Shown here piece by piece: positions 1 through 19,683 of a DNA stretch of 20,000 nt. The notes under the pieces were generated by a model. That model was given only the letters and a program-made list of their open reading frames with translations. It was not told where the DNA came from and ran no database searches. Made by a program: the position numbers and the translations under genes. The DNA is taken from IMG/VR virus record IMGVR_UViG_3300034061_003767. One strand, 5' to 3'. The stretch comes from an uncultured virus (IMG/VR IMGVR_UViG_3300034061_003767) (taxonomy: Duplodnaviria; Heunggongvirae; Uroviricota; Caudoviricetes). The stretch's first letter is position 1. The number at the start of each line of letters is the position of its first letter.

Positions 1-117
1 GAGGATGATGAGGATTATGATCTCGACAGTGAATACTGGGATCAGTTTGACGATGAAGAAGATGAGGATGATGATGACTATGATTACAACTACGGTGGTA
101 ATCAGTACCCTGGCTGA
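1..117 (+). CDS. 3' end of a hypothetical protein with a highly acidic C-terminus (partial)
   Basis: Frame 1 is open from base 1 (EDDEDYDLDSEYWDQFDDEEDEDDDDYDYNYGGNQYPG) to TGA at 115-117; not in the ORF track. Confidence 0.75.
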   Translation, partial: EDDEDYDLDSEYWDQFDDEEDEDDDDYDYNYGGNQYPG

Positions 118-122
118 TTAAT

Positions 123-139
123 GACTCCGTAAAGGAGTC
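123..139 (+). other. small stem-loop GACTCC-GTAAA-GGAGTC
   Basis: Perfect 6-bp inverted repeat just after the stop at 117; no U-tract directly behind it, so its function is unclear. Confidence 0.5.
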
Positions 140-144
140 GGAAG

Positions 145-203
145 AAAATGGGCCGCTGGTGCGGATACTAGTTAAGGGAGTGGTTCGATTCCACTACCAT
201 TTT
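145..203 (+). ncRNA. truncated tRNA-like element (acceptor stem, mini D-arm, canonical T-arm, no clear anticodon arm)
   Basis: AAAATGG(145-151)/CCATTTT(197-203) 7-bp stem; CCGC-TGGT-GCGG hairpin (153-164); AGTGG-TTCGATT-CCACT T-arm (179-195); GC-rich relative to flanks. Confidence 0.55.
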
Positions 204-218
204 TTAAAGAGGTTTACA

Positions 219-620
219 ATGCACGACCCATATGATGACGAAGATGATGGTTATGATGATGAACATTATGATAAAGACTATAATGATCAATATGATCCAT
301 ATAAATTCTATTTTCAGTTCGACATGAGTAATACCCCATTGTCAGACTGGATTACTAAAATGATTAATGATATAGTAAATAAAGAAATAGACTTGGACAA
401 GATGATAGTGTTTCCTGTGAATAGTTGGAATCCCAATACTGAGAGCAAGCCAAAACTCCAGTATTTGGGATCCAATTATAATAAAGAGCCTATATGGAAA
501 ACTAAATACTTTATATCCAACCCTCTTAATCAAGAATATAAAAAACATTTACAAAGCAATGCAGCACATTTTATTAAACAACCCAATTATTACAAGGGTT
601 TGTTTGATATTTTAAATTAA
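219..620 (+). CDS. hypothetical protein with an acidic D/Y-rich N-terminus
   Basis: ATG at 219 follows an AGAGG SD-like motif; the ORF-track start at 159 would overlap the tRNA-like element. Confidence 0.75.
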   Translation: MHDPYDDEDDGYDDEHYDKDYNDQYDPYKFYFQFDMSNTPLSDWITKMINDIVNKEIDLDKMIVFPVNSWNPNTESKPKLQYLGSNYNKEPIWKTKYFISNPLNQEYKKHLQSNAAHFIKQPNYYKGLFDILN

Positions 621-631
621 AAGGAGTTTCT

Positions 632-1057
632 ATGTCTGACTCAGAATGGTTTATTGTGCCTGATTTATCAGAGTTTACAGATAAAGCACGATCAATAGTC
701 TATAATAATTTTGGCGTTTGGAACAATAAAACAGATATGGATATCCTTATAGATGATGTGGCTCAAAATGAAAAAGCGGAATTTGATAAAGTATTATCTC
801 ATCAAGAGAGTTTAGTAATAGTTAAAGAAAATCTGAAAAGAGAAAGAAATAAGATCACAAAAAAAATTAGATATATTCTAAACGATGATATATTTGCTGA
901 GATAGTATATAAACTTAATGATAGGATGGTAAGTAATATTATTAGTGGTTTGGTTCAAAAGGGTTTAGTAGAAACTGCTTTTGATGAAGAGGCCAACGAC
1001 TTTGTTTTTTGGGTGAAAAATGATCAAGAAGAAAAAGAAAAACCAGAAACCGATTGA
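632..1057 (+). CDS. hypothetical protein, possible C-terminal winged-helix-like segment
   Basis: 141 aa ORF with AAGGAG SD; 'IISGLVQKGLVETAFDEEANDFVFW' resembles a wHTH helix plus wing. Confidence 0.75.
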   Translation: MSDSEWFIVPDLSEFTDKARSIVYNNFGVWNNKTDMDILIDDVAQNEKAEFDKVLSHQESLVIVKENLKRERNKITKKIRYILNDDIFAEIVYKLNDRMVSNIISGLVQKGLVETAFDEEANDFVFWVKNDQEEKEKPETD

Positions 1058-1448
1058 AATAGATGCTCACTTCAAATATCGATGTCCAAAATCAAATTGC
1101 GGATTTGATCATTGGCTATCTTTAAAAGAGTGTCAAACAAAAGACTTTAAAATAGTTTGTGATTGTGGGTTTGTATTTAAGCCTAAAAAAATATCTAAGA
1201 TTAAGATAGTTTATTCAGATATTAAGTTGGCGGACAACAAAGAACAACCCGCCAAGATTATAGAAAAACCTAAAATTCCTGTTGACTTTAAGAACGATTG
1301 TGGTAAACTATTGATTAGTTATGGTTTCACAAAAGAAGAAGCGATATCTTTATGTGAAAAAGCTTTTGAGAAAAATCCGGTTAACAGTTCTGGATTATTG
1401 ATTAAATATATATTACAAAATTTGGAGCAATTAAATGTCAACAATTAA
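1020..1448 (+). CDS. Zn-ribbon protein with a C-terminal RuvA domain III-like helical module
   Basis: CPKSNC...CDC at aa 22-49; aa ~90-135 'DCGKLLISYGFTKEEAISLCEKA...SSGLLIKYILQNL' fits the RuvA C-terminal pattern (ALxxLGYxxxEAxxA...LIRxAL); overlaps the ruvB start. Confidence 0.65.
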   Translation: MIKKKKKNQKPIEIDAHFKYRCPKSNCGFDHWLSLKECQTKDFKIVCDCGFVFKPKKISKIKIVYSDIKLADNKEQPAKIIEKPKIPVDFKNDCGKLLISYGFTKEEAISLCEKAFEKNPVNSSGLLIKYILQNLEQLNVNN

Positions 1449-2328
1449 AAGGCCAACATCGTTCGACAACATTATCGGTCAGTCAGATGTTGTTACCAGA
1501 CTCAAAATCTCTACGCTGGGCTGTAAAAAAACAGGTAGCGTCCTCCCTCATGTTTTAATTGACGGGCCTCCTGGCCTTGGTAAAACAACCATAGCGGGTG
1601 CTATAGCCACTGAGATGGACGTTAATCTATATACCGCAAACGCAGCAAATTTGCGTAGTGTTAAAAGTGTTCTGCCTTATCTGCTGCGTATGACAAAAAG
1701 ATCAGTATTTTTTATAGATGAAATTCATAGGCTACCAAAACTAGTTGAAGAATTTCTCTATCCGGTCATGGAAGATTTTAAAATTAATATTGTTCTTGAA
1801 AAAGAGCCAGAAGAAATTGAAATTCCTGCATTTACTTTAGTAGGAGCAACCACTAGCGGAGGTAGTCTTAGTCAGCCGTTTTATGATCGTTTTCAAATCA
1901 AAGAACATCTATCTTTCTATACTGATGATGAACTAGCCAAACTAGCAGGATTGAATTCAAGTAGTCTAGGACTAGTCATACCAGAATCAGACCTTTTGGA
2001 AATTGCAAAAAGAAGCAAAGGAACACCAAGAATTCTAAATGCTAGACTACAATGGTATAAAAACTATAAGATGTGTAATGAAGCAGAATCTGATGTTCAT
2101 AATATTTTTCAACTACAAGGAATTGACGAATACGGTCTAGATGTGTATGATAGAATGTATCTAGACATTCTTAAAAATAACAAAGGCAATCCGTTAGGTT
2201 TGAAATCCATTAGTTCTCTTACGGGCATAGCGATAGAGACTATTGAAAATAGTATTGAGCCATATTTAGTACGAAAAGGATTTGTACATCGCACCCAAAA
2301 AGGAAGAGTCATAGGTCAAATATGTTAA
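1435..2328 (+). CDS. ruvB: Holliday junction branch migration ATPase RuvB
   Basis: RPxxFxxxIGQ, Walker A GPPGLGKT, Walker B FIDEIHRL, LYPVMEDF, FTLVGATT, DRF Arg finger, GTPR sensor II, IEPYL...RTQKGR. Confidence 0.95.
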   Translation: MSTIKRPTSFDNIIGQSDVVTRLKISTLGCKKTGSVLPHVLIDGPPGLGKTTIAGAIATEMDVNLYTANAANLRSVKSVLPYLLRMTKRSVFFIDEIHRLPKLVEEFLYPVMEDFKINIVLEKEPEEIEIPAFTLVGATTSGGSLSQPFYDRFQIKEHLSFYTDDELAKLAGLNSSSLGLVIPESDLLEIAKRSKGTPRILNARLQWYKNYKMCNEAESDVHNIFQLQGIDEYGLDVYDRMYLDILKNNKGNPLGLKSISSLTGIAIETIENSIEPYLVRKGFVHRTQKGRVIGQIC

Positions 2329-2705
2329 AAACAATATGCTTTACGTTTTGTCTTTTATTATTTTCAACAACTATCATTGCTAATGATGGCTTTATTTTAT
2401 CCTCTATGGAGGAAACACAAAAACTTTCTAAATTAACAAACAAACCTGCACTAGTAATATTTGGTGCAGACTATTGCAAGTTTTGTCAGATACTTAAACA
2501 AGATATCTTGACTAATCAATTAAGTCCAAGCATAAATGAATATATTATATGCTATATTGATGTAAAAGATAATCTTAATCTAAAAAACAAATATAAAATA
2601 TCTTCTATACCCGACTCTAGAATATTTATTGATAACGAACAAGTGTCTAAAACCACGGGCTATTCAAAAGACACATATAAAAAGTGGTTAAATAATGATC
2701 GATAA
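2322..2705 (+). CDS. exported thioredoxin-fold protein (CxxC)
   Basis: N-terminal signal peptide-like stretch; KPALVIFGADYCKFC; 'SIP' cis-Pro loop. Confidence 0.8.
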   Translation: MLKTICFTFCLLLFSTTIIANDGFILSSMEETQKLSKLTNKPALVIFGADYCKFCQILKQDILTNQLSPSINEYIICYIDVKDNLNLKNKYKISSIPDSRIFIDNEQVSKTTGYSKDTYKKWLNNDR

Positions 2706-3003
2706 TAATTCTATAATAATATTAGTCATTATTATTTTAATTATTAATTCGTTTTTTATAGGATACTTATTGGGTCGATCTGTCAGTACAAAGGGTGTAT
2801 CAAATAATAATACCAAATCATTTTTTAAACGAGAACACGAGAAACTAAACACAAATAATCCTATTTCCATAGACGATAAAAAATTCGTTGCTGATATCAA
2901 AACAGATGGATTAGAAAAAAAATATGATTCATTAGGAGATATTAAAAAGAGTGAAGAAAATATCTCTAATTCTGTAAACAAACTTAAAAACCTAAAGAGG
3001 TAG
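2695..3003 (+). CDS. small bitopic membrane protein
   Basis: Single N-terminal hydrophobic helix (IIILVIIILIINSFFIGYLLG) followed by a basic, hydrophilic tail. Confidence 0.75.
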   Translation: MIDNNSIIILVIIILIINSFFIGYLLGRSVSTKGVSNNNTKSFFKREHEKLNTNNPISIDDKKFVADIKTDGLEKKYDSLGDIKKSEENISNSVNKLKNLKR

Positions 3004-3007
3004 TACA

Positions 3008-4009
3008 ATGTCAAAAGGCTTAGACGTAGGAACAAGTTACATAGTATTGTCTTCAGAACAAGATGGCAATATAGAGTATAAAGACTTTAGAGATGCTTTC
3101 TATATAATTAAACCTACCACTCCCGTAGCAACCAAAATGATCGAAAAAGGTTTAGCTGGAAAAACATTTATCAAAGATAGTGACGGATCGTTTATTATCT
3201 TAGGAAAAGACGCTATAGAAAAAGCAGTAGAAAGAAATGATGTTGCAAAAAGACCCATGTATAGGGGTGTTGTCTCAGCAAAAGAAAAAGACGCAAAAAG
3301 AGTACTAGCATTTATTTTAAAAGAAGTAGTCGGAACATCCTCAGAGTCAGGAGAAAAACTTGTATTCTGTGTTCCTGCACAACCTGTTGATCAAGAAGAC
3401 GAAGATTTTGATGTTGGATACCATGAAGATGTTGTTAAAAGTGTTTTAGCAGAATGTGGTTATGATGCTAGAGCAATTAATGAAGCAGAGGCTTTGTGCT
3501 ACTCAGAATTAGAGGGCGATGATTATACTGGGATAGCAATTAGTTGTGGGGCTGGTATGACAAATGTTTGTGTTATGTTAAACGGTGAGCCAACAGTAGT
3601 CTTTAGTACCACAAAGTCAGGCGATTGGATTGATCGTATGAGTGCTGTAGCCACAGGAGAAACGGATAGTGTTGTACAGGCTGAGAAAGAGGGTGGTCAA
3701 TTTAAAATTGGAGAACCCAACAACAATCCTGTCCTTGCTGCGGTATCTGCATATTATGAAAGACTAATTGATTATACTACAAAACAATTATCCTCAGCAT
3801 TAACAGGACATAAGTCTTTACCAAAATTTAAAGATCCTCTCAAAATTGTTGTTGCTGGAGGAACCTCTCAAGCACAAGGATATATAGAATTATTCACACA
3901 AAAACTAGCAGAAAATAACTTCCCTCTTGTAGTCAAAGAGGTCGTCCACGCTACTGATCCACTTCATGCTGTTTCTAAAGGATGCTTAATAGCGGCCAAA
4001 GTATTATAA
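3008..4009 (+). CDS. actin-like ATPase, volactin-like family
   Basis: Phosphate-1 KGLDVGT, RPMxxG, connect-1 INEAEALCYSEL, phosphate-2 GIAISCGAGMTNVC, GDWID, adenosine VVAGGTS, connect-2 DPLHAVSKGCLIAA. Confidence 0.9.
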   Translation: MSKGLDVGTSYIVLSSEQDGNIEYKDFRDAFYIIKPTTPVATKMIEKGLAGKTFIKDSDGSFIILGKDAIEKAVERNDVAKRPMYRGVVSAKEKDAKRVLAFILKEVVGTSSESGEKLVFCVPAQPVDQEDEDFDVGYHEDVVKSVLAECGYDARAINEAEALCYSELEGDDYTGIAISCGAGMTNVCVMLNGEPTVVFSTTKSGDWIDRMSAVATGETDSVVQAEKEGGQFKIGEPNNNPVLAAVSAYYERLIDYTTKQLSSALTGHKSLPKFKDPLKIVVAGGTSQAQGYIELFTQKLAENNFPLVVKEVVHATDPLHAVSKGCLIAAKVL

Positions 4010-4025
4010 TATAATAATATATTCA

Positions 4026-4038
4026 GTGTATTTAAATA
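4026..4038 (+). promoter_or_regulatory. candidate phage promoter motif GTGTAT plus AT-rich tail
   Basis: Intergenic GTGTAT 47 nt before the ATG at 4073; the same hexamer lies 50 nt before the ATG at 19717. Confidence 0.3.
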
Positions 4039-4072
4039 GGATGTTCAGCCTCTAATAATTACGGAGGATGGT

Positions 4073-4828
4073 ATGCTTAAAAAGATTATATTCTGCATCT
4101 TATTTATTAATTTATCAACAATTTTTGCTGGAACAACAGACCCCAATACTCCAGATCAAAAGTATGTGGATTATGCCAAAGACTTTTATTATGTAGGTAA
4201 AATATGTGGATCTTATGAAGACGGCACTAGATTTTGTGCATCTGCTGTAGCAATAGATGATCATCATATATTAACTGCTGCTCATGTTGTAAAAAATAGT
4301 GTTTCGTGTTCGGTTTCTTTTGATGATAAAAAATATAACATAATTACAATGACTATACATAAAGATTTCAATGAAAATAAATTTGGAACAGCAGATATTG
4401 CTATAGGATATTCAGAAAAATCGTTTGACTTAAAGTTTTATCCACAATTATACAATAATAATGATGAAATTGGCAAAGTGTGCTGTATTTCTGGATATGG
4501 TTTAACTGGTACATTTAAAACTGGAGCACGCTTATCTGATCAAAAAAAACGAGCAGGATCAAATATCATAGATGATATAGAAGATGATATGCTTATTTGT
4601 AGTCCTTCTTATCCTCAAGATTCTAATAGAACTTCATTAGAATTTTTTATAGCTAGTGGAGATAGTGGTGGTGGTCTTTTTATAGATAGTCGTTTGGCCG
4701 GAATAAATTCTTGTGTGATGGCTATTGACAGATCGCCCAAAAGCAAATATAATGAACAGTCAGGCCATACTAGGATTCAAAAATTCATCTCTTGGATTGA
4801 AGAAAACAAAATTAAAAAACAAAAATGA
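4073..4828 (+). CDS. exported trypsin-like (S1) serine protease
   Basis: Signal peptide; catalytic triad motifs LTAAHV, ADIAI, GDSGGG; GGAGG SD. Confidence 0.92.
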   Translation: MLKKIIFCILFINLSTIFAGTTDPNTPDQKYVDYAKDFYYVGKICGSYEDGTRFCASAVAIDDHHILTAAHVVKNSVSCSVSFDDKKYNIITMTIHKDFNENKFGTADIAIGYSEKSFDLKFYPQLYNNNDEIGKVCCISGYGLTGTFKTGARLSDQKKRAGSNIIDDIEDDMLICSPSYPQDSNRTSLEFFIASGDSGGGLFIDSRLAGINSCVMAIDRSPKSKYNEQSGHTRIQKFISWIEENKIKKQK

Positions 4829-5022
4829 AAGACTTTGATAGTTTTGATAGAAAATCTTTTCGTAAAGAAAAATTAGATAGCAAAAAAAAAGATAGAAAAT
4901 TATCTAGCGATTTTAGCGAAGAGCAAAGAATTAAAAGATTAAATAAACAAAATCTAAAGAAAAAAATTCAGGAAATAGCAGAAGAAGAAAAATGGGAAGA
5001 CTGGGAAAATGAAATACATTGA
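4825..5022 (+). CDS. small highly charged hypothetical protein
   Basis: 65 aa, ATGA overlap with the upstream gene; basic body with an acidic WEDWE tail. Confidence 0.65.
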   Translation: MKDFDSFDRKSFRKEKLDSKKKDRKLSSDFSEEQRIKRLNKQNLKKKIQEIAEEEKWEDWENEIH

Positions 5023-5245
5023 GGAAATTTATTCTGGAGATTGTTTTGAATTTAAAAATAAACAATATTTATTAACACATGACTTTAAAAAAAATGGTCA
5101 AAGATTATGTTATTGTTTATTAGACGGCACAGGAGAATGGTTTGAGCCTTCTGTTATGGTTGAGATATTTCCTATATATGGACTAGACAATAACAATAAT
5201 ACATATCCTATTAAACCAACACCGAAATCGTCAGATGTTATCTAG
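5009..5245 (+). CDS. hypothetical protein
   Basis: 78 aa ORF overlapping both neighbours. Confidence 0.65.
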   Translation: MKYIEEIYSGDCFEFKNKQYLLTHDFKKNGQRLCYCLLDGTGEWFEPSVMVEIFPIYGLDNNNNTYPIKPTPKSSDVI

Positions 5246-5489
5246 ATTAAAAATATTTGTCTCGTCATTATTCTGGCATATTGCTAGAGGATTGCCAAAA
5301 AGTGGAAAACAAAATATCTTAGCAAGATATGACATTTGTAAACAATGTGAATCTTATAATCGTCAATACAAAATTTGTAATGAATGTGGATGTAATATAT
5401 CTAATAAAAGTATTTTTTTAAATAAATTAGCTTGGGCTGATCAGGAATGTCCTTTAGGAAAATGGGGTAAATATGCAAAAGATAAATAA
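5235..5489 (+). CDS. small Cys-rich putative Zn-binding phage protein
   Basis: RxxICxxC...CxxCGC...CPLGKW pattern, common in phage hypothetical proteins. Confidence 0.75.
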   Translation: MLSRLKIFVSSLFWHIARGLPKSGKQNILARYDICKQCESYNRQYKICNECGCNISNKSIFLNKLAWADQECPLGKWGKYAKDK

Positions 5490-6021
5490 AAAACATATAT
5501 TTTATATTAAAGATAATTTATTTGACAATATTATTAATAAAATTCAAACTAGTCAAACTAGTCACACAATTATAGTTCCTCATGTATGTAATAATATTAA
5601 TCTTTTTGATGCTGGATTTGCTGGTCAGATCTCTATTAGATATCCTGTAGTCAAAGCAAATTTTCACCTTTTAGGTAAGGATGCTAAATTAGGCTATACG
5701 CAATTTGTTAAAGCGTACGAAAATACCAAAAAAGAAAGTGAAATTGTTTTTGCTAATATGATTAGCCAAAATGGTACTATCGGAGCTTTAAATAAACGTC
5801 CATTAAATTATGCTTTCTTAATGCGTTGTATGCTTGATGTTAAACAATTTATTCAAAATAAAACTAAAGAAGATACAGAACAAATAATAGAAATACATTG
5901 TCCAAAATTTGGTAGTGGTTTAGCAGGAGGTCAATGGTCTTTTATTCATCAGCTAATAATAGATATATGGAAAAATATTCCCGTCTATGTTTATGACTAT
6001 GACAATAGGAATAAAATATAA
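5473..6021 (+). CDS. macrodomain protein (Poa1p/TARG1/DarG-like ADP-ribose hydrolase fold)
   Basis: IVPHVCN...AGFA..I..RYP, VFANMISQ, LNY, IHCPKFGSGLAGGQW signature. Confidence 0.85.
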   Translation: MQKINKKHIFYIKDNLFDNIINKIQTSQTSHTIIVPHVCNNINLFDAGFAGQISIRYPVVKANFHLLGKDAKLGYTQFVKAYENTKKESEIVFANMISQNGTIGALNKRPLNYAFLMRCMLDVKQFIQNKTKEDTEQIIEIHCPKFGSGLAGGQWSFIHQLIIDIWKNIPVYVYDYDNRNKI

Positions 6022-6635
6022 TGCAAGATCTTATGACACAACAAGATATCTATAAGGAATTAGATTTTTGGAAAAATTATATACAGCCATATAAAAATTT
6101 TAAACATAAACAATATTATATAGATTTTTTTCCATTTTCAGAAATTACTGGACATTGTTTAGAAATTGGTTGTGGAGGATCTCCCTTTGTTACATATGTG
6201 GATAATCCTATATCTAATATAGATTTATCTTTGGTCGATCCTCTAATAAATCAAATAGCAGAACTGCCTAGATATGACTTTTTAAAAAATTATCATATTT
6301 TTAATTGTAGTCTACTAAATTTTAGTACATTAGAAACATACGACTATATTATTTGCTTAAATGTTTTAGATCATTTTCCAAAATATCATACTAATTTTAT
6401 AGATAAAATAAAAAGTCTTTTAAAGCCTCTCGGTAAATTATTTTTATATTATGATATTAGAAAAGAGAATAAAGATGATCACTATAGTATTGATCACAAT
6501 ATAATTTATCAACATATTCATAATAATTTTTCTATAGTTAAAGAATCTTTAGCTATTAATCCAGAACATAAAGATTGGTCTACAGTATATATGGGATACA
6601 GAGCTGTTTTAGAAAATAAACTGGACCACAAATGA
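6021..6635 (+). CDS. class I SAM-dependent methyltransferase
   Basis: CLEIGCGG motif I, VDP, YDYIICLNVLDH, LLKPLGKL. Confidence 0.85.
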   Translation: MQDLMTQQDIYKELDFWKNYIQPYKNFKHKQYYIDFFPFSEITGHCLEIGCGGSPFVTYVDNPISNIDLSLVDPLINQIAELPRYDFLKNYHIFNCSLLNFSTLETYDYIICLNVLDHFPKYHTNFIDKIKSLLKPLGKLFLYYDIRKENKDDHYSIDHNIIYQHIHNNFSIVKESLAINPEHKDWSTVYMGYRAVLENKLDHK

Positions 6636-7210
6636 ATTATTTACTCGATTGCGGTACTCATTTTTTTCAGGGATTAAACAAACTAAATGATATCTATAGG
6701 TTTGACCATACTTGGCAGATTTATTGTTTTGAGGCTAATCCTATAACATTTATAAAATCAAAAAAATATTATCCATCTTTTCCAAATATAATACATGAAA
6801 ATTTGGCTGTTTCTATAAACGAAAATGAATGTATAGTAAACTGCGACATAAATAATAATGATGAATGTGGTCAGGGATCAAATATATTAACATCACCACC
6901 TAATAAAGATATCGTATACAATCACTTGTTCAATTTTATGCCATATAAAGTGAAAAAATTTGATATCTGTAAATTTTTACAACAACTAAATAACATAGAA
7001 CAATTAATTATTAAAATTGATATTGAAGGAGAAGAGTTTAATGTAGTCCCACATATTTTAAAACACTTTAATTGTTCACTCATCAATACTATATATATAG
7101 AATTTCATGAGAGATTTTTTATAGAAGAAATAGAGACTTATCAAAAATTAAAAATAAAATATAAAGAGTCTTTATCCAAACTTGGTTGCCGCGTGATAGA
7201 ATGGGAATGA
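6632..7210 (+). CDS. FkbM-family methyltransferase
   Basis: LDCGTH, YCFEANP, ENLAV, IKIDIEGEE, YIEFH. Confidence 0.88.
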   Translation: MNYLLDCGTHFFQGLNKLNDIYRFDHTWQIYCFEANPITFIKSKKYYPSFPNIIHENLAVSINENECIVNCDINNNDECGQGSNILTSPPNKDIVYNHLFNFMPYKVKKFDICKFLQQLNNIEQLIIKIDIEGEEFNVVPHILKHFNCSLINTIYIEFHERFFIEEIETYQKLKIKYKESLSKLGCRVIEWE

Positions 7211-7217
7211 ATAATAT

Positions 7218-7895
7218 ATGAAACTCTACACTCTATATACCGATTCTCATGCTGTTTTATTAAATAATTTTTTTCTTCCTTCTGTTAAGAAAGTAAAAAA
7301 CATAGAACTAATTATTGAACATAAACCACAAGACTGTGCATCTGGACAATATATGCAGAATGGTTGGCTGACAACCATGAAACATAAAGTTCAATATCAC
7401 ATAAAAGCCTGTCAAATATATGACGATGAAATATTTATATATTCTGATTGTGATGTTATTTTTTTAAATAAAAATTTAGTACAATCTATAATTGATGAAA
7501 TGGGAGATTGTGATATAGCTTGCCAAAACGATGTTGCCCTCTACAATAATAGAGATACTTGTTGTGCTGGGTTCTTTGTTTGTAAAACCAATAATAAGAC
7601 TGTACATCTTTGGCAAAGTATTTTAGAACACATGAATAGTTTACCAACAAATACAAACGAACAAGATCAGTCTTTATTAAATCACTATTTAGATAAAATT
7701 GATATTAAATATAAAACATTATCTCATAAATTTTTTACATTAGCAAGACATAAACCAGAACTATGGGATCAAAAAAATAACTACTTCGACTTTACTATAC
7801 CTGATGATATTATTGCATACCATGCTAATTGGACACATGGCATAGAAAACAAAATTGCTCTTTTAAATTATGTACAATCTAAAATAAAACAATAA
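7218..7895 (+). CDS. nucleotide-diphospho-sugar transferase (GT-A; GT77/Nucleotid_trans-like)
   Basis: IYSDCDVIF (DxD), CAGFF, DQSLLN, YHANW...K. Confidence 0.8.
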   Translation: MKLYTLYTDSHAVLLNNFFLPSVKKVKNIELIIEHKPQDCASGQYMQNGWLTTMKHKVQYHIKACQIYDDEIFIYSDCDVIFLNKNLVQSIIDEMGDCDIACQNDVALYNNRDTCCAGFFVCKTNNKTVHLWQSILEHMNSLPTNTNEQDQSLLNHYLDKIDIKYKTLSHKFFTLARHKPELWDQKNNYFDFTIPDDIIAYHANWTHGIENKIALLNYVQSKIKQ

Positions 7896-7897
7896 TT

Positions 7898-8758
7898 ATG
7901 AATATATTAATTACAGGACATAAAGGATTCGTTGGAAAATATTTTGTTACAAAATATGCTAATCATAATATTGTAGGAATCGACATCAAAGATGGTAACG
8001 ATGTTAGAGATTTTTTCAAAAAAGATTTTTCTGCTTTTGATTTGGTTATACATCTTGCGGCTATTGTAGGAGGCAGACAAACTATAGAGGGATCTCCAAT
8101 ATCTGTTGCTATTGACTTATCGATTGATGCTGAGTTTTTTAGTTGGTGCTTAAAGGCTAAACCTAAACATATAATATATTTTTCTTCATCAGCAGCATAT
8201 CCGATTAAATATCAATATTCTAATTCTAATATTAAGCTATCTGAAGATTTGATAGATTTAGATAATGTAGAATCTCCAGATCTTACTTATGGATGGGCAA
8301 AATTAACTGGTGAATATTTAGCTAAATTTGTAAGTCATGAAATTAATACTACAATTTTTCGCCCATTTTCTGGGTATGGTTCTGACCAAGATTTGTCCTA
8401 CCCTTTTCCTTCTTTTATTAAAAGAGCATATGAAAAACAAAATCCTTTCGAGATATGGGGTGACGGAACACAAGTTAGAGATTTTATACATATTCAAGAC
8501 ATTGTGGATGCTGTTGATGTGTGTGTTCAAAATAAAATTACCGGCACTTATAATCTTGGATCTGGCATACCTACTTCTTTTAATGATTTAGCAAATCAAC
8601 TATGTGATATAGTTGGTTACCAGCCCTATATCCTGCATAAACCATCTGCTCCTACTGGTGTAATGTATAGGGTTTGTGATCCAACTAAAATGCTAAATTT
8701 TTATAAGCCAAAAATTACTTTAGAACAAGGTATTAATTTAGCTTTAAATTCTATATGA
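7898..8758 (+). CDS. NAD-dependent NDP-sugar epimerase/dehydratase (extended SDR)
   Basis: ITGHKGFVG, VIHLAA, FSSSAAY, YGWAK (YxxxK), WGDGTQVRDFIHI. Confidence 0.92.
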   Translation: MNILITGHKGFVGKYFVTKYANHNIVGIDIKDGNDVRDFFKKDFSAFDLVIHLAAIVGGRQTIEGSPISVAIDLSIDAEFFSWCLKAKPKHIIYFSSSAAYPIKYQYSNSNIKLSEDLIDLDNVESPDLTYGWAKLTGEYLAKFVSHEINTTIFRPFSGYGSDQDLSYPFPSFIKRAYEKQNPFEIWGDGTQVRDFIHIQDIVDAVDVCVQNKITGTYNLGSGIPTSFNDLANQLCDIVGYQPYILHKPSAPTGVMYRVCDPTKMLNFYKPKITLEQGINLALNSI

Positions 8759-10572
8759 GAGTAGCCCATCGTCTAGCAAAGAAATGTCAATCTGATAATT
8801 TGATTAATTTATCCGTTTCTTTTACAAATGCAGACATTTTAAATGATCATATTATTGATGTATTTATCAATAAAAATATAAACATTACAGATAAAAGCAT
8901 ATTGGTTTTGTCTTTAGTTAATAATTGTGGGAATAGTATATACTATATCGATAAATTTATTCAAGAACTATCAGAAGTATTTAATAATATTAAATTTTGT
9001 TTTTTTTCTAATAACAATAAAGACCCAACACATAAAATCTTAGATAATTTAGAACAAGCTTATAAAAATAATGTTTATATTATAAGACATAAAGATGAAC
9101 CTATCTCTATTGTAGATAGAATTTATAAATTTGCAGAATATCGTAATATTAATTTTATAGAAGCAATTAATAAGTTTGGTACAGATTTTGATTATTTAAT
9201 AGTTTTTGATTCTGATTTATCTGATAGTATTCCGATTCAACCTATAGTTGATAGTCTAAAAATAGAAAACATAGATTGGTCTTGTATAACTGGGAACCAT
9301 TGTTATAAAAATTCTTCCTATTATTATGACGATCTAGCATTAAGATTTATTAATGATCCTATCAATATAAGAGACAAATATAAAAATTTTGATATTTTTT
9401 ATGGAAAATCTGAATACTGGCTAGATAATTTATATCTAATGAACAATTGGATTAAAGTTAAATCTGCTTTTGGTGGTCTTAGTATTTATAAAATGCCAGA
9501 AGTTTTAGATATTTTTCATACCCATCATCATTTATATGATATGGAAAACCTACCAGAATATACTGCTGAGCATATAGCTCTAAATCTTAAACTTACCAAA
9601 GATATTTTAATTAATCCTAATATCAAATATACCAATACTGTTAACATAGAGGGAAAAATGTATAATCATCCTATAGCTTTTGTTCCTAGAGATGCTGGAT
9701 TCTTTTCTGTATTTAATTTCTATGTGGGGTGTCTAACTCAAGGAGGTAGGTCATATCCCCTATGGAATAAACAAGAACTACTGAATATGCATAGAACTAA
9801 TGATCATTTTGCATACTGGACAGAGAATTTTAATTGTTGGTTCGATTATTTTGAGCCTGTTGAATTTTTTGCTAATGATACAACACATATATCTCAAGAA
9901 TATTTAAAACTACCAAGATATTCTGGTGAACAAGGACCAGAGGAATTTAGAATACCAGATAAAACTAAACAATTATTAAAGGGAGATAAAGAAACTTTTA
10001 AACAATGGCGAATCAATGTTCATAAGTTTTTCAAAACCTTTGTAAAGTTCAAACCCGAAATTGTCGATAGTGTCAATGAAATTTGGGACGATAATTTTGG
10101 TGATAGTCAGAACATTATCGGGATCCATTATAGACATCCAAGCCATTTTATAGAGAGTGGTAAAATATATTTAGAAGACTATTTCTCTAAAATAGATACT
10201 ATTCTAAAAGAACATCCTAGATCAAAGATTTTTTTAGCGTCTGATAGTCAATTTGGTATTTATTCTTTTGTAGAAAGATATGGCAATAGGGTTTTTTATA
10301 TCCAAGATATTGATAGATTAAGCATGGCGGAGTTTTTACAGTGGGCTTTTGGATTAGCCGACGGTAAGGCGGATCATGTTGGTTTTATCAACGGGAAAGG
10401 ATACGAACTTCACCATAAACGAGTAGGCAAAATAGATAATAAAAAAATGACCACCGATCTTCTCAAAGAAGTTCTATGTTTATCCCGTTGCAATCAAATT
10501 ATTAATAATATTTCTAATATTCCATTAGCTATTAGCTATATAAATCCGGAGGTTGAAATTATCACACTATGA
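8755..10572 (+). CDS. two-domain glycosyltransferase: N-terminal CAP59/GT69-like GT-A plus C-terminal NodZ/GT23-like (fucosyltransferase-type) domain
   Basis: N-half: FAEYRN, DYLIVFDSD, YDDLALR, VKSAFGGLSIYK, EH. C-half: DAGFFSVFN, IGIHYR, IFLASD, LSRC...SN. Confidence 0.75.
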   Translation: MRVAHRLAKKCQSDNLINLSVSFTNADILNDHIIDVFINKNINITDKSILVLSLVNNCGNSIYYIDKFIQELSEVFNNIKFCFFSNNNKDPTHKILDNLEQAYKNNVYIIRHKDEPISIVDRIYKFAEYRNINFIEAINKFGTDFDYLIVFDSDLSDSIPIQPIVDSLKIENIDWSCITGNHCYKNSSYYYDDLALRFINDPINIRDKYKNFDIFYGKSEYWLDNLYLMNNWIKVKSAFGGLSIYKMPEVLDIFHTHHHLYDMENLPEYTAEHIALNLKLTKDILINPNIKYTNTVNIEGKMYNHPIAFVPRDAGFFSVFNFYVGCLTQGGRSYPLWNKQELLNMHRTNDHFAYWTENFNCWFDYFEPVEFFANDTTHISQEYLKLPRYSGEQGPEEFRIPDKTKQLLKGDKETFKQWRINVHKFFKTFVKFKPEIVDSVNEIWDDNFGDSQNIIGIHYRHPSHFIESGKIYLEDYFSKIDTILKEHPRSKIFLASDSQFGIYSFVERYGNRVFYIQDIDRLSMAEFLQWAFGLADGKADHVGFINGKGYELHHKRVGKIDNKKMTTDLLKEVLCLSRCNQIINNISNIPLAISYINPEVEIITL

Positions 10573-11423
10573 ACATACAGGAACTATTACCTCCATCAGC
10601 AGAATTTATAGATCGATATAATAATAATATTGAGCTTGGTAAATCTTTTCTAAAAGATAAAAAAATAGTTATTATTGGTTTGGCCAGAAATATAGCAAAT
10701 AGTATCGAGGATTCATTATCAAAACTAGTAGACTTTGCACAAAATGCTAAAGACTATAAAATTATTATTTTTGAAAACGATTCAAGTGATAATACACGCG
10801 AGATATTAGAGAATATAAAAAAAGATAATCCTAATATTATAACTCTTTATGAAACCCATAATCGACCACAGTTTGGACAGGTACAAGATACAGAGCGTAC
10901 TATGGCTTTGGCAGAATATAGAAATACTCTAAGAGAGTACATCAATACGCATCTGCTAGACTACGATTACGTAATTGTTTCTGATATGGATTTTATTGAC
11001 TTCAGCGACCTAGGCTGCTATAATTCTTTTGGCTGGTTGGCTCGTCATACAGACACAATTGATGCTGTAGCGGGTAATTCTTTTGAATATAAAAACGTAA
11101 CATTGGCTAATCAAAAAAGTTTATGGAACTACGATAGTTGGGCATTTAGATATACATGGTGGAATCAGTTGCCTGTTTTAGATTCTATGACTTATAGTGG
11201 AATGTTATGGTTTGGATTTTTTATTATGCCGGTTGGTTCTACAATAATTCCTGTAAATAGTGCTTTTGGTGGTATGACAATATATAAGACGCATCAATTT
11301 GTTCAGGGTACTTATGATGGTTATGATTGCGAGCATGTGTGTTTTCATTATAGTTTAAAACAAAAAATACCATCATTTCAGCTGGTATTAAACCCTTCTC
11401 AAACAATGGTATTTAAAGAATGA
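10569..11423 (+). CDS. CAP59/GT69-like GT-A glycosyltransferase
   Basis: IFENDSSDNT, R..ALAEYRN, VIVSDMD, YDSWAFR, PVNSAFGGMTIYK, CEHVCFH. Confidence 0.8.
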   Translation: MNIQELLPPSAEFIDRYNNNIELGKSFLKDKKIVIIGLARNIANSIEDSLSKLVDFAQNAKDYKIIIFENDSSDNTREILENIKKDNPNIITLYETHNRPQFGQVQDTERTMALAEYRNTLREYINTHLLDYDYVIVSDMDFIDFSDLGCYNSFGWLARHTDTIDAVAGNSFEYKNVTLANQKSLWNYDSWAFRYTWWNQLPVLDSMTYSGMLWFGFFIMPVGSTIIPVNSAFGGMTIYKTHQFVQGTYDGYDCEHVCFHYSLKQKIPSFQLVLNPSQTMVFKE

Positions 11424-11557
11424 CAATCGTTTTATCTTTAGCAATAATTATTGGCATTTTAAATTGTATGAAAACTATTTCGGATACAAGATTAGGATAT
11501 CTTCCAGCCGTCAAACCTTCGAAAAATTTAATCAGTTTTACTTTTTTAAATGAATAA
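11420..11557 (+). CDS. 45-aa small protein with a hydrophobic N-terminus
   Basis: MTIVLSLAIIIGILNCMKT...FLNE*; ATGA overlap with the upstream stop and an 8-nt overlap with the downstream start; below the ORF-track cut-off. Confidence 0.6.
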   Translation: MTIVLSLAIIIGILNCMKTISDTRLGYLPAVKPSKNLISFTFLNE

Positions 11558-12092
11558 TCGTCTACACAATCAAAGAGTTTATCTCGCTGGTGCTATGGAC
11601 AGAGTTGCTGATCGTGGTACAGGTTGGCGAGATAGTATAACTCCATTCTTACAAAGTTTAGAAATTGTGGTATTCAATCCGATTAGTAAGCCTACAGATA
11701 TTGGATTAGAAGATCATGATACTCATCAAATCAAAACTAAGCTCAAACAAATGGGCAGATATGACGAATTAGCTGCTATGATGAAAACTATTCGTAGTGT
11801 AGATTTACGTCTAGTAGATATTAGTGATTTTTTAGTAGTCAATCTAGACTTAGATATTCATCCATGCGGCACATACGAAGAAATTACATGGGCCAACCGA
11901 CAAAAAAAACCCATTATCATACATATGGTCCAAGGTAAGGGTCATGCTCCAGATTGGTTGTTTGGAATGATTCCTCATCAAATGATTTTTTCCAACTGGG
12001 ATGAAATCAAAAACTATCTAAATCATATTAACAATTCAGAAAATATAGACACACATAAAAGGTGGTATTTCTTCAATGCAAAAAATAATTAA
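11550..12092 (+). CDS. nucleoside 2'-deoxyribosyltransferase / nucleotide N-glycosidase-like protein
   Basis: VYLAGAM, VFNP, DLRLVDISDFLVV, GTYEEI (catalytic Glu), KKPII. Confidence 0.82.
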   Translation: MNNRLHNQRVYLAGAMDRVADRGTGWRDSITPFLQSLEIVVFNPISKPTDIGLEDHDTHQIKTKLKQMGRYDELAAMMKTIRSVDLRLVDISDFLVVNLDLDIHPCGTYEEITWANRQKKPIIIHMVQGKGHAPDWLFGMIPHQMIFSNWDEIKNYLNHINNSENIDTHKRWYFFNAKNN

Positions 12093-13194
12093 CGAAACAA
12101 AACTAGATTTTGATGACGTTTTGATTAGGCCAAAACGATCTACTCTGAATAGTCGAGCAGAAGTAGATTTGGTTCGTACTTTTAAATTTGCTCATAGTCC
12201 ACGACAATTAAATTGTGTACCGATTATGGTGGCAAATATGGATACTGTTGGTACATTTGAAATAGCTAAATCGTTATGTAAACAGCAAGCTATCACCTGT
12301 CTGCACAAACATTATAAAACAATAGATTATGTTGCATTTTATATTGATCATAGCATAGTTAATAAAAATCTTGCTTTTTATTCTGTTGGCACAAGTCAGA
12401 AAGATATAGAAAAAGTAATTGATGTATTTGATCAAATTAAAAGACTTGGCTTTGAAACACCAAATATTTGTTTGGATGTTGCTAATGGATATACTGAACA
12501 ATTTGTAAAAACGGCTGCTCATATTAGAAAATTATTTCCAGAAATTATTATTATGGCTGGTAATGTTGTTACTCAAGAAATGGTCGAAGAACTAATTATT
12601 CATGGAAAAGTCGATATAGTCAAGGTCGGTATAGGGTCAGGCAGTGTTTGTACCACTCGTTTAAAAACGGGCGTCGGATACCCTCAATTGAGTGCTGTGA
12701 TGGAGTGTTCGGATGCTGCTCATGGTCTTGGTGGGCATATTTGTTCTGACGGAGGCTGTAAAATAGTCGGAGACATTTGTAAGGCTTTTGGTGGTAATGC
12801 TGATTTTGTAATGTTGGGTAGTATGTTTGCTGGTGCTGATGAGTGCGAAGGAGAATGGAAATACGAATGGAAAATGAGAAGTGGTGGATGGCAACCTTTT
12901 GACCCACAATCTCCTGATGTTGAAAAACGCAAAGTATCATTACAATATTATGGAATGAGTAGCAAAAACGCTATGGATAAACACCATAACGGAGTTGCAG
13001 AATATAGAACAGCAGAGGGTAAGTGTGTCATAGTACCATATAAAGGAAAAGCAGAAGAAATATTACAAGACATTTATGGTGGTATGCGTAGCGCGTCCAC
13101 ATACATAGGAGCCACAAAAATAAAAGACTTTGGAAAAAAAACAACATTTATTCAAGTAAACAACACACACAATAAAATTTATGAAAAAAATTAA
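12076..13194 (+). CDS. guaC: GMP reductase
   Basis: LDFDDVLIRPKRSTLNSR, PIMVANMDTVGT, DVANGY, AGNVVT, KVGIGSGSVCTTR..TGVGYPQLSAV, SDGG, YYGMSS, YRTAEGK. Confidence 0.93.
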   Translation: MQKIINETKLDFDDVLIRPKRSTLNSRAEVDLVRTFKFAHSPRQLNCVPIMVANMDTVGTFEIAKSLCKQQAITCLHKHYKTIDYVAFYIDHSIVNKNLAFYSVGTSQKDIEKVIDVFDQIKRLGFETPNICLDVANGYTEQFVKTAAHIRKLFPEIIIMAGNVVTQEMVEELIIHGKVDIVKVGIGSGSVCTTRLKTGVGYPQLSAVMECSDAAHGLGGHICSDGGCKIVGDICKAFGGNADFVMLGSMFAGADECEGEWKYEWKMRSGGWQPFDPQSPDVEKRKVSLQYYGMSSKNAMDKHHNGVAEYRTAEGKCVIVPYKGKAEEILQDIYGGMRSASTYIGATKIKDFGKKTTFIQVNNTHNKIYEKN

Positions 13195-14296
13195 TTTAAA
13201 CTGTCCAATTAACGGTACGGGCTATGGTATAACATCTCTTAATATAGCCAAAGCATTAGTGTCTCTAAATATAGATTTATGTTTATTTCCTATAGGATCT
13301 AAGATAGAAGTAAATTCATTATTAGATGCGGAAATTATCAAAACATTGATGAAAAAAAATGAGTTCTTCCCATACGAAGCTCCGTGTTTAAAAATTTGGC
13401 ATCAACACGATTTAGCTACTAAAATCGGTAACGGTCATTATTATACTTTTCCATTTTTTGAGATAGATACTTTATCCAAAAAAGAAATTCATCATTTAAA
13501 TTGTAGTGACTATATATTTGTAGCTTCTTCTTGGGCCAAAAATATATTAATTAATAATGGAGTTAAAAAACCCATCTACACTGCGCCGCTCGGTGTTGAT
13601 ATGAATATTTTTTATGAACCAAACAAAATTAAAGTAGAACAAGAAAATTATATCTTTTTTCATATAGGAAAATGGGAACACAGAAAATCTCAAGATATTT
13701 TATTAAAGACTTTTGATCAAGCATTTTCAGATAAGGATAATGTGGAACTAAGACTTGTTCCATTCAATCCGTTCCTGTCTGAGCAAGAAAACGATTATTG
13801 GTTTAATTTAGTAGATGCTTGTAAACTCAGAGATAAAATTAAAATATTTGGTAGACTGCCTACTCAATACAATTTGGCTGAATTTATATTTCATGCAGAT
13901 TGTGGTGTTTTTATATCTAGAGCAGAAGGTTGGAATAACGAGGTTATAGAAACTATGGCTATGAATAAGCCGGTGATTACAACAAACTACTCAGCCCACA
14001 CAGAGTATTGCAATGATAAAAATTCTTATCTTGTCAATATAGATCGACTAGAACCAGCAAATGATGGAAAATGGTTTCATGGCGAAGGTAAATGGGCAGA
14101 ATTGGGCCAAAATCAAATAGATCAAACAGTAGAATATATGAGATATGTGTATAATAATCGTATAGACTCTAATCCAGAAGGAGTAAAGGCTGCTGAAAAA
14201 TACTCATGGACTAGAACAGCAGATATTATAAATCAAACTTTTATAGGGAATAATAGCTATTATGCCAATACCAAAACCAGAAAAAAACGAAGATAA
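13181..14296 (+). CDS. GT4-family (GT-B) glycosyltransferase
   Basis: TGYG, FFHIGKWEHRK, SRAEGWNNEVIETMAMNKPVITT (EX7E), YSW. Confidence 0.88.
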   Translation: MKKINLNCPINGTGYGITSLNIAKALVSLNIDLCLFPIGSKIEVNSLLDAEIIKTLMKKNEFFPYEAPCLKIWHQHDLATKIGNGHYYTFPFFEIDTLSKKEIHHLNCSDYIFVASSWAKNILINNGVKKPIYTAPLGVDMNIFYEPNKIKVEQENYIFFHIGKWEHRKSQDILLKTFDQAFSDKDNVELRLVPFNPFLSEQENDYWFNLVDACKLRDKIKIFGRLPTQYNLAEFIFHADCGVFISRAEGWNNEVIETMAMNKPVITTNYSAHTEYCNDKNSYLVNIDRLEPANDGKWFHGEGKWAELGQNQIDQTVEYMRYVYNNRIDSNPEGVKAAEKYSWTRTADIINQTFIGNNSYYANTKTRKKRR

Positions 14297-16211: not shown

Positions 16212-16239
16212 ACTTGTATCATTGGACTGATATTTAAAA

Positions 16240-16554: not shown

Positions 16555-16568
16555 ATAAAGGATAATAA

Positions 16569-17583: not shown

Positions 17584-17586
17584 ATT

Positions 17587-17925: not shown

Positions 17926-17928
17926 ACT

Positions 17929-18991: not shown

Positions 18992-18992
18992 A

Positions 18993-19664: not shown

Positions 19665-19666
19665 TG

Positions 19667-19683
19667 GTGTATAGATAATTATC
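19667..19683 (+). promoter_or_regulatory. candidate phage promoter (GTGTAT) with an adjacent 10-bp palindrome GATAATTATC
   Basis: Intergenic; GTGTAT at 19667-19672, palindrome at 19674-19683, GGAG SD at 19707-19710. Confidence 0.3.

What the first reader, a model, noticed from the sequence alone, without database searches (positions are those of the whole stretch)
1020..2328. Non-canonical RuvAB: RuvA's RuvB-docking domain fused to a Zn ribbon instead of OB/HhH junction-binding domains
Seen: the gene overlapping the ruvB start has a CX4C...CXC Zn ribbon, a Lys/Pro-rich linker and a C-terminal helical segment with the RuvA domain III pattern. No OB-fold or HhH region is recognisable, and no ruvC is in the window. 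Known: in bacteria, RuvA domains I-II bind the Holliday junction and domain III recruits RuvB. Inference: this phage retargets the RuvB motor through a different adaptor, to another DNA structure or protein, which would be an uncharacterised branch-migration or DNA-remodelling module.
Basis: partly seen in the sequence, partly recalled or inferred. Interest (0 to 1): 0.78.

Follow-up and report, generated by a model that had tools for sequence, protein, structure and literature searches.

The report
Phage RuvB with optional zinc-ribbon mini-RuvA
An uncultured large phage carries its own RuvB DNA motor, and the small gene overlapping its start keeps only RuvA's motor-docking domain, tethered to a basic zinc ribbon; related phages have dropped this gene several times, so it looks like an optional adaptor.

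Summary
ORF 1020-1448 (142 aa) overlaps ruvB (1435-2328) by 14 nt. It has a CX4C...CXC zinc ribbon, a disordered Lys-rich linker and a three-helix C-terminal domain.

That C-terminal domain is RuvA domain III rather than a generic UBA fold:
- The family profile's best PDB match is T. thermophilus RuvA domain III (E 0.069).
- 2 of 40 members hit Pfam RuvA_C (best 2e-5).
- hhalign to E. coli RuvA aligns residues 157-199 (E 0.0024).
- The four best of 48,161 chains in a fold search are RuvA domain III (Z 5.5-6.2).

RuvB is intact. No OB or HhH domain is present, and five complete relatives have no RuvA_N.

The "replacement adaptor" reading is only partly right. Starting from the small protein, 78 of 78 usable loci have RuvB downstream. 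Starting from RuvB, 18 of 79 usable loci lack the small gene, including two complete genomes. The RuvB tree needs at least 3 gains or losses. Two unknown upstream genes (219-620, 632-1057) are the constant partners.

These phages also encode RecA and endonuclease VII, so junction processing remains the likely job.

This scan has reported the same module on at least eight other genomes. My paper searches found no description of it.

The parts
1020..1448 (+). mini-RuvA gene (142 aa): zinc ribbon + linker + RuvA domain III
   Evidence: ORF. The family has 251 hits and 245 representatives of 50%-identity clusters. AF2 model.
1020..1217 (+). N-terminal basic zinc-ribbon domain (aa 1-66; C22, C27, C47, C49; Lys-rich N-terminal tail)
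   Evidence: The four Cys are invariant in A1 and present in 259 of 263 members. pLDDT is 88-94. pI is 9.7. Family median net charge is +8.
1218..1277 (+). flexible Lys-rich linker (aa 67-86)
   Evidence: pLDDT is 48-71. Length ranges 0-60, median 21, with composition free to vary.
1278..1445 (+). RuvA domain III-like three-helix domain (aa 87-142) with an invariant YGF loop
   Evidence: Best PDB profile hit is 1ixs_A, E 0.069. hhalign to E. coli RuvA 157-199, E 0.0024. Foldseek's best hits are RuvA, prob 0.97. VIA's top four are RuvA domain III, Z 5.5-6.2.
1435..2328 (+). phage RuvB (297 aa), intact AAA+ motor
   Evidence: Pfam RuvB_N 2.6e-44, RuvB_C 3.4e-20 and the lid domain. NCBIfam NF000868 scores 290.2 bits against a cut-off of 282. 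38% identity to E. coli RuvB, E 6e-70.
1783..1824 (+). RuvB presensor-1 beta-hairpin (aa 117-130), the expected docking site for domain III; 4 residues shorter than in E. coli
   Evidence: It aligns to E. coli L135-L152. A passage in PMC2628435 names that hairpin as the RuvA contact.
632..1057 (+). up141: conserved acidic 141-aa protein of unknown function; overlaps the mini-RuvA start by 38 nt
   Evidence: Present in 80 of 80 loci in both surveys. AF2 pLDDT 80.6, pTM 0.68. No clear fold match.
219..620 (+). up133: conserved 133-aa protein with an Asp/Glu/Tyr-rich N-terminal tail, unknown function
   Evidence: Present in 79 of 80 loci. No PDB or Pfam match.

Best explanation
The 142-aa protein is a cut-down RuvA. 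It consists of a basic four-cysteine zinc ribbon, a flexible tether, and RuvA domain III. Its gene is translationally coupled to an intact phage RuvB.

Shown here: the domain composition, the gene order and its conservation, the intactness of RuvB, and the recombination genes that travel with it in related phages.

[quoted passage not shown] There it would promote nucleotide exchange and ATP hydrolysis, and tether the hexamer. The zinc ribbon, together with the Lys-rich N-terminal tail, would hold DNA or a DNA-bound partner and so supply the anchor against which RuvB pulls. The module would then migrate or remodel branched DNA made by the phage RecA, with endonuclease VII as the resolvase.

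The protein is an accessory, not the core of the module. It has been lost several times among close relatives. The constant neighbours of RuvB are the two unknown proteins up133 and up141.
For: Domain III identity:
- The A1 profile's best PDB sequence match is RuvA domain III from the RuvA-RuvB complex (1ixs_A, E 0.069, query 88-139).
- 2 of 40 members hit PF07499, best 2e-5.
- The only RuvA_C six-frame hit in five complete relatives is this gene, in G003 (1.1e-4).
- hhalign to E. coli RuvA gives E 0.0024 over residues 157-199.
- Foldseek's best rows are RuvA (prob 0.97; 1ixs_A TM 0.74, rmsd 1.8 over 47 columns), with UBA domains lower at prob 0.38-0.44.
- In the VIA search of 48,161 chains, ranks 1-4 are RuvA domain III (Z 6.2, 6.0, 5.6, 5.5), against UBA/CUE at about 4-4.8.

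Contact residues:
- In one search's alignment, E. coli L167 and L170 pair with L98 and Y101. L167A and L170A abolish RuvB activity in vivo without affecting junction binding (passage in PMC2628435).
- Across the family, position 98 is L/M/F/I in 263 of 263, position 101 is Y/F/L in 258 of 263, G102 is kept in 263 of 263, and position 103 is F/Y in 261 of 263.

Synteny: RuvB is directly downstream in 78 of 78 loci with room.

RuvB is intact:
- Walker A and B are present.
- R152 aligns with the E. coli arginine finger R174.
- R286/K289/R291 align with the DNA-contact hairpin arginines described for P. aeruginosa RuvB (passages in PMC10071043).

Role of domain III as nucleotide-exchange factor, ATPase activator and anchor: passages in PMC9477746.

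N-terminal domain charge: pI 9.7, median net charge +8.

Context:
- RecA in 5 of 5 complete relatives.
- Endonuclease VII in 4 of 5 relatives and in the window's own record.
- No RuvA_N in 5 of 5.
Against: - The window's own protein hits no Pfam family at E<=0.1.
- All sequence and fold statistics for the 50-residue domain are marginal on their own: E 0.069, Foldseek E 0.4, Z about 6.
- Binding to RuvB was not tested.
- The RuvB hairpin is 4 residues shorter than in E. coli.
- 18 of 79 usable RuvB loci lack the gene. Two complete genomes with terminal repeats lack it anywhere (positive control) and have no RuvA_C or RuvA_N either. RuvB therefore works without any phage-encoded domain III in those phages.
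- Their hairpins look the same as in phages that keep the gene.
- Nothing beyond charge supports DNA binding by the zinc ribbon.
Confidence: 0.62

Rival explanations
1. The real RuvA substitute is one or both of the constant upstream proteins (up133, up141), which bind the DNA substrate or RuvB. Mini-RuvA only bridges or tunes this complex.
For: up141 is present in 80 of 80 and up133 in 79 of 80 RuvB loci, whether or not mini-RuvA is there. The genes overlap or abut. up141 shows weak winged-helix hints: AdcR at E 0.2 and SarA at Foldseek prob 0.41.
Against: up141 is acidic, pI 4.6. It shows no similarity to RuvA domains I-II: hhalign aligns only 9 columns and no RuvA chain appears in the fold searches. 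The best Z of 5.3 is at noise level. up133 has no match at all. No interaction was tested.
Confidence: 0.2
2. Mini-RuvA is a pure regulator or insulator. It occupies the domain III site on phage RuvB, or on host RuvB, to switch the motor on or off or to keep host RuvA away. The zinc ribbon serves folding or self-association, not targeting.
For: In bacterial RuvAB, domain III alone modulates the RuvB nucleotide cycle (passages in PMC9477746). The gene is dispensable in several lineages. The same paper reports that RuvA and RuvB from different species can work together.
Against: The N-terminal domain is strongly and consistently basic and is more conserved than the domain III part, which suggests a ligand of its own. 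The strict linkage to the phage's own RuvB argues against a host-directed decoy.
Confidence: 0.12
3. The C-terminal domain is a generic UBA-like three-helix bundle with a different partner, and its position next to ruvB is incidental.
For: UBA and CUE domains also align, at Z 4-4.8 and Foldseek prob 0.38-0.44. One of 40 members hits UBA_9 at E 0.034.
Against: RuvA domain III outranks UBA domains in both fold searches and is the only significant sequence relative. The gene sits where ruvA sits in the E. coli K-12 record, directly upstream of ruvB, in 78 of 78 loci.
Confidence: 0.06

Closest known systems
Bacterial RuvA-RuvB branch-migration complex (E. coli RuvAB; T. thermophilus 1IXS/1IXR; the 7PBL-7PBS cryo-EM series)
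   Same: Gene order, with the small gene directly upstream of ruvB. A C-terminal three-helix domain III joined by a flexible linker. Hydrophobic positions equivalent to E. coli L167/L170 and the G171-Y172 loop are kept. RuvB has all three domains and the presensor-1 hairpin.
   Different: RuvA domains I (OB fold) and II (two HhH motifs), which form the tetramer and grip the junction, are absent and replaced by a 66-residue basic zinc ribbon. The RuvB hairpin is 4 residues shorter. RuvB lacks about 18 N-terminal and 17 C-terminal residues of the E. coli protein. The small gene is facultative. No RuvC is present; the resolvase in these phages is of the endonuclease VII type.
UBA/CUE-like three-helix domains
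   Same: The same small fold, with a Gly-aromatic loop between helices 1 and 2. That this loop is the usual binding surface in UBA domains is recalled, not tested here.
   Different: They score lower than RuvA domain III in both fold searches, and there is no ubiquitin system in this context.
Jumbo-phage recombination sets surveyed by Iyer et al. 2021 (PMC7824862; passages read)
   Same: Large phages that carry their own recombinase and a Holliday-junction resolvase, including endonuclease VII types.
   Different: [quoted passage not shown] Here a RuvB is present, with a partial RuvA.

Membership tests
RuvA (Holliday junction branch migration complex subunit) | Domain I, OB fold (Pfam RuvA_N, PF01330) | tested here: not met
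   No Pfam hit in the protein or in 40 relatives. No six-frame hit in the window's own record or in 7 complete relatives. The model shows a zinc ribbon instead.
RuvA (Holliday junction branch migration complex subunit) | Domain II, two helix-hairpin-helix motifs (HHH_5, PF14520) | tested here: not met
   HHH_5 is absent's list for this protein and from the 25 of 40 matching families that displays. 0 of 5 complete relatives score over the cut-off.
RuvA (Holliday junction branch migration complex subunit) | Domain III, the RuvB-binding three-helix domain (RuvA_C, PF07499) | tested here: met
   Met at the family-profile and fold level. The window's own sequence alone does not reach Pfam significance.
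RuvA (Holliday junction branch migration complex subunit) | Tetramer that binds four-way junctions | not testable with these tools
   The domains that do this in RuvA are absent. The oligomeric state of the zinc-ribbon protein is unknown.
RuvA (Holliday junction branch migration complex subunit) | Physical binding to the RuvB alpha3/presensor-1 hairpin | not tested
Only the conservation of positions equivalent to L167/L170 is shown.
RuvB (AAA+ branch-migration motor) | RuvB_N P-loop domain, lid and C-terminal winged helix; equivalog-level score | tested here: met
   Pfam hits. NF000868 scores 290.2 bits against a cut-off of 282, while TIGR00635 scores 270.7 against 299.05, which is not reached. 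38% identity to E. coli RuvB over 296 columns.
RuvB (AAA+ branch-migration motor) | Catalytic and DNA-contact residues (Walker A/B, arginine finger, C-domain hairpin basic residues) | tested here: met
   GPPGLGKTT, D95/E96, R152, R199 and K289/R291 are invariant, and R286 nearly so, in 24 phage RuvBs. They align to E. coli residues. The residue roles come from passages in PMC10071043.
Zinc ribbon | Two Cys pairs on beta-hairpin knuckles | tested here: met
   CX4C and CXC are invariant, and the model shows hairpins. Metal binding itself is not testable here. The subfamily was not resolved: only weak IBR and CCCH hits, 12 of 40 members each, best 0.0017.
UBA-like domain | Three-helix bundle with a Gly-aromatic loop | tested here: inconclusive
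   The fold-level likeness is real (Z 4-4.8) but weaker than to RuvA domain III.

The most novel reading that the evidence does not exclude
The conserved unit is a new kind of RuvB machine. Its constant partners are the two unknown proteins up133 (with an acidic Asp/Glu/Tyr tail) and up141, not RuvA. The zinc-ribbon mini-RuvA is a plug-in module that couples the motor to a particular DNA structure or protein when needed. RuvB would then be used in these phages for a job other than classic four-way junction migration, for example fork remodelling or clearing proteins from DNA.
Probability: 0.25. Interest if true: 0.78.

Novelty: new variant of a known kind. Interest (0 to 1): 0.58.

Why it matters
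RuvAB is a textbook motor, and its current mechanism gives RuvA domain III an active role as nucleotide-exchange factor and anchor. Here nature has separated domain III from the junction-gripping body of RuvA, joined it to a different basic domain, and in sister phages deleted it altogether while keeping RuvB. That offers a natural test of three questions:
- What does domain III do on its own?
- Can RuvB work without a RuvA core?
- What do the two always-linked unknown proteins contribute?

It also adds a RuvB-based branch-migration option to the phage recombination repertoire. A 2021 survey of jumbo phages described their RuvC resolvases as not coupled to a RuvB-like ATPase (PMC7824862, passages read).

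Tried and rejected
- **Complex prediction.** Complex prediction for RuvB with residues 84-142 was not available, so no interface test exists.
- **Covariation.** Mutual information between domain III and RuvB columns over 49 locus pairs gave only singleton or lineage-bound signals. It was uninformative.
- **Hairpin with and without the gene.** Comparing RuvB alpha3 and hairpin segments between loci with and without mini-RuvA showed no systematic difference.
- **up141 as a split-off RuvA domain I-II.** hhalign aligned 9 columns. Neither the Foldseek list nor the VIA list contains RuvA; the best rows are SarA/MarR at prob 0.41 and an unrelated chain at Z 5.3.
- **up133 as an archaeal-type junction resolvase.** The AHJR-like hit appears in 1 of 29 members at E 0.053, and no acidic residue is invariant. 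The lead was dropped. The PDB profile search returned 0 hits.
- **ESM Atlas.** Scores were only 0.77-0.81, which are leads at best. One neighbouring cluster has RuvA_C on 50% of its members.
- **GenBank phage collection.** There was no match to the small protein at E<=1e-3. RuvB matches are all under 60% identity (about 41% at best among the 30 of 37 listed) and include records annotated as bacterial-type ruvB.
- **Longer proteins carrying the zinc-ribbon domain.** None was found, which is weak evidence.
- **Prokaryote genomes.** One hit only, on a 1.1-kb contig of an alphaproteobacterial MAG. This gives no host inference.
- **PADLOC.** Only P-loop-local matches.
- **Zinc-ribbon fold on its own.** I make no claim that its fold is new.

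Full report
**What is there.** The window comes from a 29.9-kb fragment of a virus record that CheckV estimates to be 22% complete. Around the finding, a run of plus-strand genes overlap or abut:
- up133 at 219-620. The listed GTG ORF begins at 159, but the conserved ATG is at 219.
- up141 at 632-1057.
- The 142-aa gene at 1020-1448.
- ruvB at 1435-2328.
- A thioredoxin-like gene with a signal peptide at 2322-2705.

The 142-aa gene overlaps up141 by 38 nt and ruvB by 14 nt.

**The small protein.** The cysteines C22-x4-C27 and C47-x-C49 are invariant in a 40-sequence alignment that I built from 39 of the 120 listed hits plus the query. All four are present in 259 of 263 distinct family sequences. 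That set is 268 fetched proteins, minus those outside 118-200 aa and duplicates, plus the query. The AF2 model has mean pLDDT 80.6. It shows:
- a small beta-hairpin domain at residues 11-66, pLDDT 88-94;
- a low-confidence linker at about 67-86;
- three helices at 88-138, pLDDT about 86.

The N-terminal domain is basic, with pI 9.7 and a family median net charge of +8. The linker ranges from 0 to 60 residues, median 21, and its composition varies freely. The C-terminal domain is near neutral.

**Is the C-terminus RuvA domain III or just UBA-like?** HMMER finds no Pfam family for the window's own sequence. At family level, several independent tests point to RuvA:
- The A1 profile's best hit among all PDB sequences is T. 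thermophilus RuvA domain III from the RuvA-RuvB complex (1ixs_A, E 0.069, query 88-139). Full-length RuvA comes next.
- 2 of 40 members hit PF07499 RuvA_C, best 2e-5, against 1 of 40 for a UBA family.
- hhalign of A1 against E. coli RuvA aligns query 88-132 with RuvA 157-199 at E 0.0024.
- In a six-frame scan of five complete relatives, the only RuvA_C hit is this gene, in G003, at 1.1e-4.
- Foldseek's best rows are RuvA chains (prob 0.97; 1ixs_A TM 0.74, rmsd 1.8 over 47 columns). The E-values are only 0.4-1.4, as expected for a 50-residue domain. UBA domains follow at prob 0.38-0.44.
- VIA-align, run against 48,161 representative chains without any Foldseek pre-filter, puts RuvA domain III at ranks 1-4 (7pbp_G Z 6.2, rmsd 1.8, 48 residues; 2ztc_A 6.0; 1ixs_A 5.6; 1ixr_B 5.5). 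UBA and CUE domains score about 4-4.8.

Each number is modest. Their agreement, together with the gene's position, makes homology to domain III the clear reading.

**Contact positions.** In one search's alignment, E. coli L167, L170, G171, Y172 and E176 pair with L98, Y101, G102, F103 and E107. A passage in PMC2628435 reports that L167A and L170A abolish RuvB activity in vivo without affecting junction binding. The same passage gives the RuvA domain limits: I 1-64, II 65-140, III 155-203, with a 15-residue linker. Across the family:
- position 98 is L/M/F/I in 263 of 263;
- position 101 is Y/F/L in 258 of 263;
- G102 is kept in 263 of 263;
- position 103 is F/Y in 261 of 263;
- E107 is kept in 256 of 263.

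**RuvB.** The 297-aa protein has RuvB_N (2.6e-44), the RuvB lid and RuvB_C (3.4e-20). It passes the NCBIfam RuvB equivalog NF000868 (290.2 bits against 282) but not TIGR00635 (270.7 against 299.05). It is 38% identical to E. coli RuvB, E 6e-70. The following are invariant, or nearly so, in 24 phage RuvBs: Walker A, Walker B, R152 (aligned with the E. coli arginine finger R174), the GTPR sensor-2 motif, and R286/K289/R291 on the C-domain hairpin. The residue roles come from passages in PMC10071043. The hairpin that contacts RuvA in E. coli is L135-L152 (passage in PMC2628435). It aligns with phage residues I117-I130 and is 4 residues shorter at the tip.

**Conservation, starting from the small protein.**
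- 251 database proteins match at E<=0.01.
- 245 representatives of 50%-identity clusters match at E<=0.001, and the 150 that are listed are 80-236 aa long.
- 129 viral stretches encode a relative.
- Of the 80 viral loci kept, 78 have RuvB starting -10 to +36 nt from the end of the match. The other two end 47 and 1 nt after it.
- up141 is present in 80 of 80 and up133 in 79 of 80.

**Conservation, starting from RuvB. This changed my reading.** Earlier notes of this scan said that sister phages lack the small gene, so I tested that claim. A scan with the RuvB alignment found 508 viral stretches, of which the best 80 were kept. HMMs of the four proteins gave:
- mini-RuvA present in 61 loci, absent in 18, and 1 locus with no room to judge;
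- up141 in 80 of 80;
- up133 in 79 of 80, the exception being a truncated locus.

Where the gene is absent, the up141 stop lies -17 to +41 nt from the RuvB start, so the deletion is clean. Five records without it were searched whole with the A1 profile. None matched, including two complete genomes with direct terminal repeats, of 138 and 187 kb. The same search found the gene in 3 of 3 positive controls, at E 1e-59 to 1e-64. Those two complete genomes also have no RuvA_C or RuvA_N.

On a RuvB tree (IQ-TREE quick search, 80 rows, 60 of them distinct), presence or absence needs 7 changes. At least 3 are forced by well-supported branches, and the shuffled mean is 15.9. The RuvB hairpin and alpha3 segments look alike in both groups.

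So the small protein is real, selected and tied to RuvB, but it is facultative.

**Context.** Five complete relatives that keep the gene (159-224 kb) have:
- no RuvA_N;
- no RuvC over the cut-off;
- no HHH_5 over the cut-off;
- RecA in 5 of 5;
- endonuclease VII in 4 of 5.

The window's own record has endonuclease VII about 10.3 kb upstream of the gene and no RuvC.

I scanned 144 of the 194 ORFs of at least 70 aa that my own simple ORF caller found in the 159-kb relative G004. Short ORFs and two ORFs spanning locus borders were left out. The scan found endonuclease VII, RecA, DnaB, a Toprim primase, a split Pol III alpha, SSB, a PD-(D/E)XK nuclease, an ATP-dependent ligase, UvdE, ThyX and an ERCC4-domain nuclease. 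These phages therefore have a full recombination and replication set.

**The constant neighbours.** up141 is acidic, pI 4.6. Its model has pLDDT 80.6 and pTM 0.68. It shows only weak winged-helix hints, and nothing resembling RuvA domains I-II. up133 has an Asp/Glu/Tyr-rich N-terminal tail, a conserved C-terminal half, and no match in PDB sequences or Pfam. Their functions remain open.

**Mechanism.** According to passages in PMC9477746, RuvA domain III binds RuvB helix alpha3 and the presensor-1 hairpin. It acts as a nucleotide-exchange factor and ATPase activator, and it anchors the rotating motor. My best reading is that the phage protein supplies exactly this domain, on a flexible tether whose other end is a basic zinc ribbon that probably holds DNA. 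The docking and the DNA binding are inferences.

Because RuvB persists without the small gene, the protein is an enhancer or coupler rather than a requirement. In phages that lack it, RuvB may run alone, with up133 and up141, or with the host RuvA. Cross-species RuvA-RuvB cooperation is reported in the same paper.

**Novelty.** Three full-text searches found no paper describing a zinc-ribbon/domain III protein paired with a phage RuvB. [quoted passage not shown] Subscription-only literature and supplements were not searched. This scan has already reported the same module on at least eight other genomes, so for the scan it is a repeat finding.

Noticed in passing
window 3008-4009 (+): An actin-fold protein matching Pfam Volactin (PF25216, 5.3e-62), a family I recall as described from haloarchaea. 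It is the most conserved gene of the neighbourhood, 72-93% identical across related phage loci. NCBIfam gives only weak BeeR, MamK and salactin hits. One paper search for 'volactin' together with 'phage' found no phage report.
   Followed up: partly
window 219-620 and 632-1057 (+): Two unknown genes are always linked to the phage RuvB (79-80 of 80 loci), even where the mini-RuvA is deleted. up133 has a striking Asp/Glu/Tyr-rich N-terminal tail. up141 is acidic, with a possible winged-helix-like C-terminal half.
   Followed up: partly
window 1020-1057: A 38-nt stretch codes in two frames: the up141 tail ...EKPETD and the mini-RuvA N-terminus ...KNQKPIE, both conserved. Where mini-RuvA is deleted, the up141 tail has decayed in 7 of 14 distinct tails. 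The tail's conservation therefore seems partly imposed by the overlapping frame.
   Followed up: partly
window 2322-2705 and 4073-4828 (+): A thioredoxin-like protein and a trypsin-like serine protease both begin with hydrophobic, signal-peptide-like N-termini, which suggests exported phage proteins.
   Followed up: no
window 6021-14296 (+): A long block of ORFs. The syntenic block in relative G004 encodes glycosyltransferases and sugar-modifying enzymes, but the window's own ORFs there were not scanned against Pfam. The exception is an IMPDH/GMP-reductase-like gene at 12076-13194 (PHROG dehydrogenase, 1.1e-105). Further on lie a sigma-70-like factor (16569-17219) and a ClpP-like protease (18311-18991).
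   Followed up: no
window 19716-20000: the genome search reports that only places 1-19715 of the window lie on the record's contig. The last 285 bases, which hold the start of an ORF rich in Ala, Ser and Thr, lie off it or belong elsewhere.
   Followed up: no
G004 (159-kb relative): about 93507-105377 (-) and L090:6405-11504 (-): An open frame of about 3,950 aa that I could not scan because it spans locus borders, and a 1,700-aa protein with collagen triple-helix repeats (2e-50). Most structural genes have no Pfam match.
   Followed up: no
P0212 (236 aa, database protein): A single family member has an unrelated 130-residue N-terminal part in place of the first half of the zinc ribbon. It may be an assembly or gene-calling chimera.
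   Followed up: no
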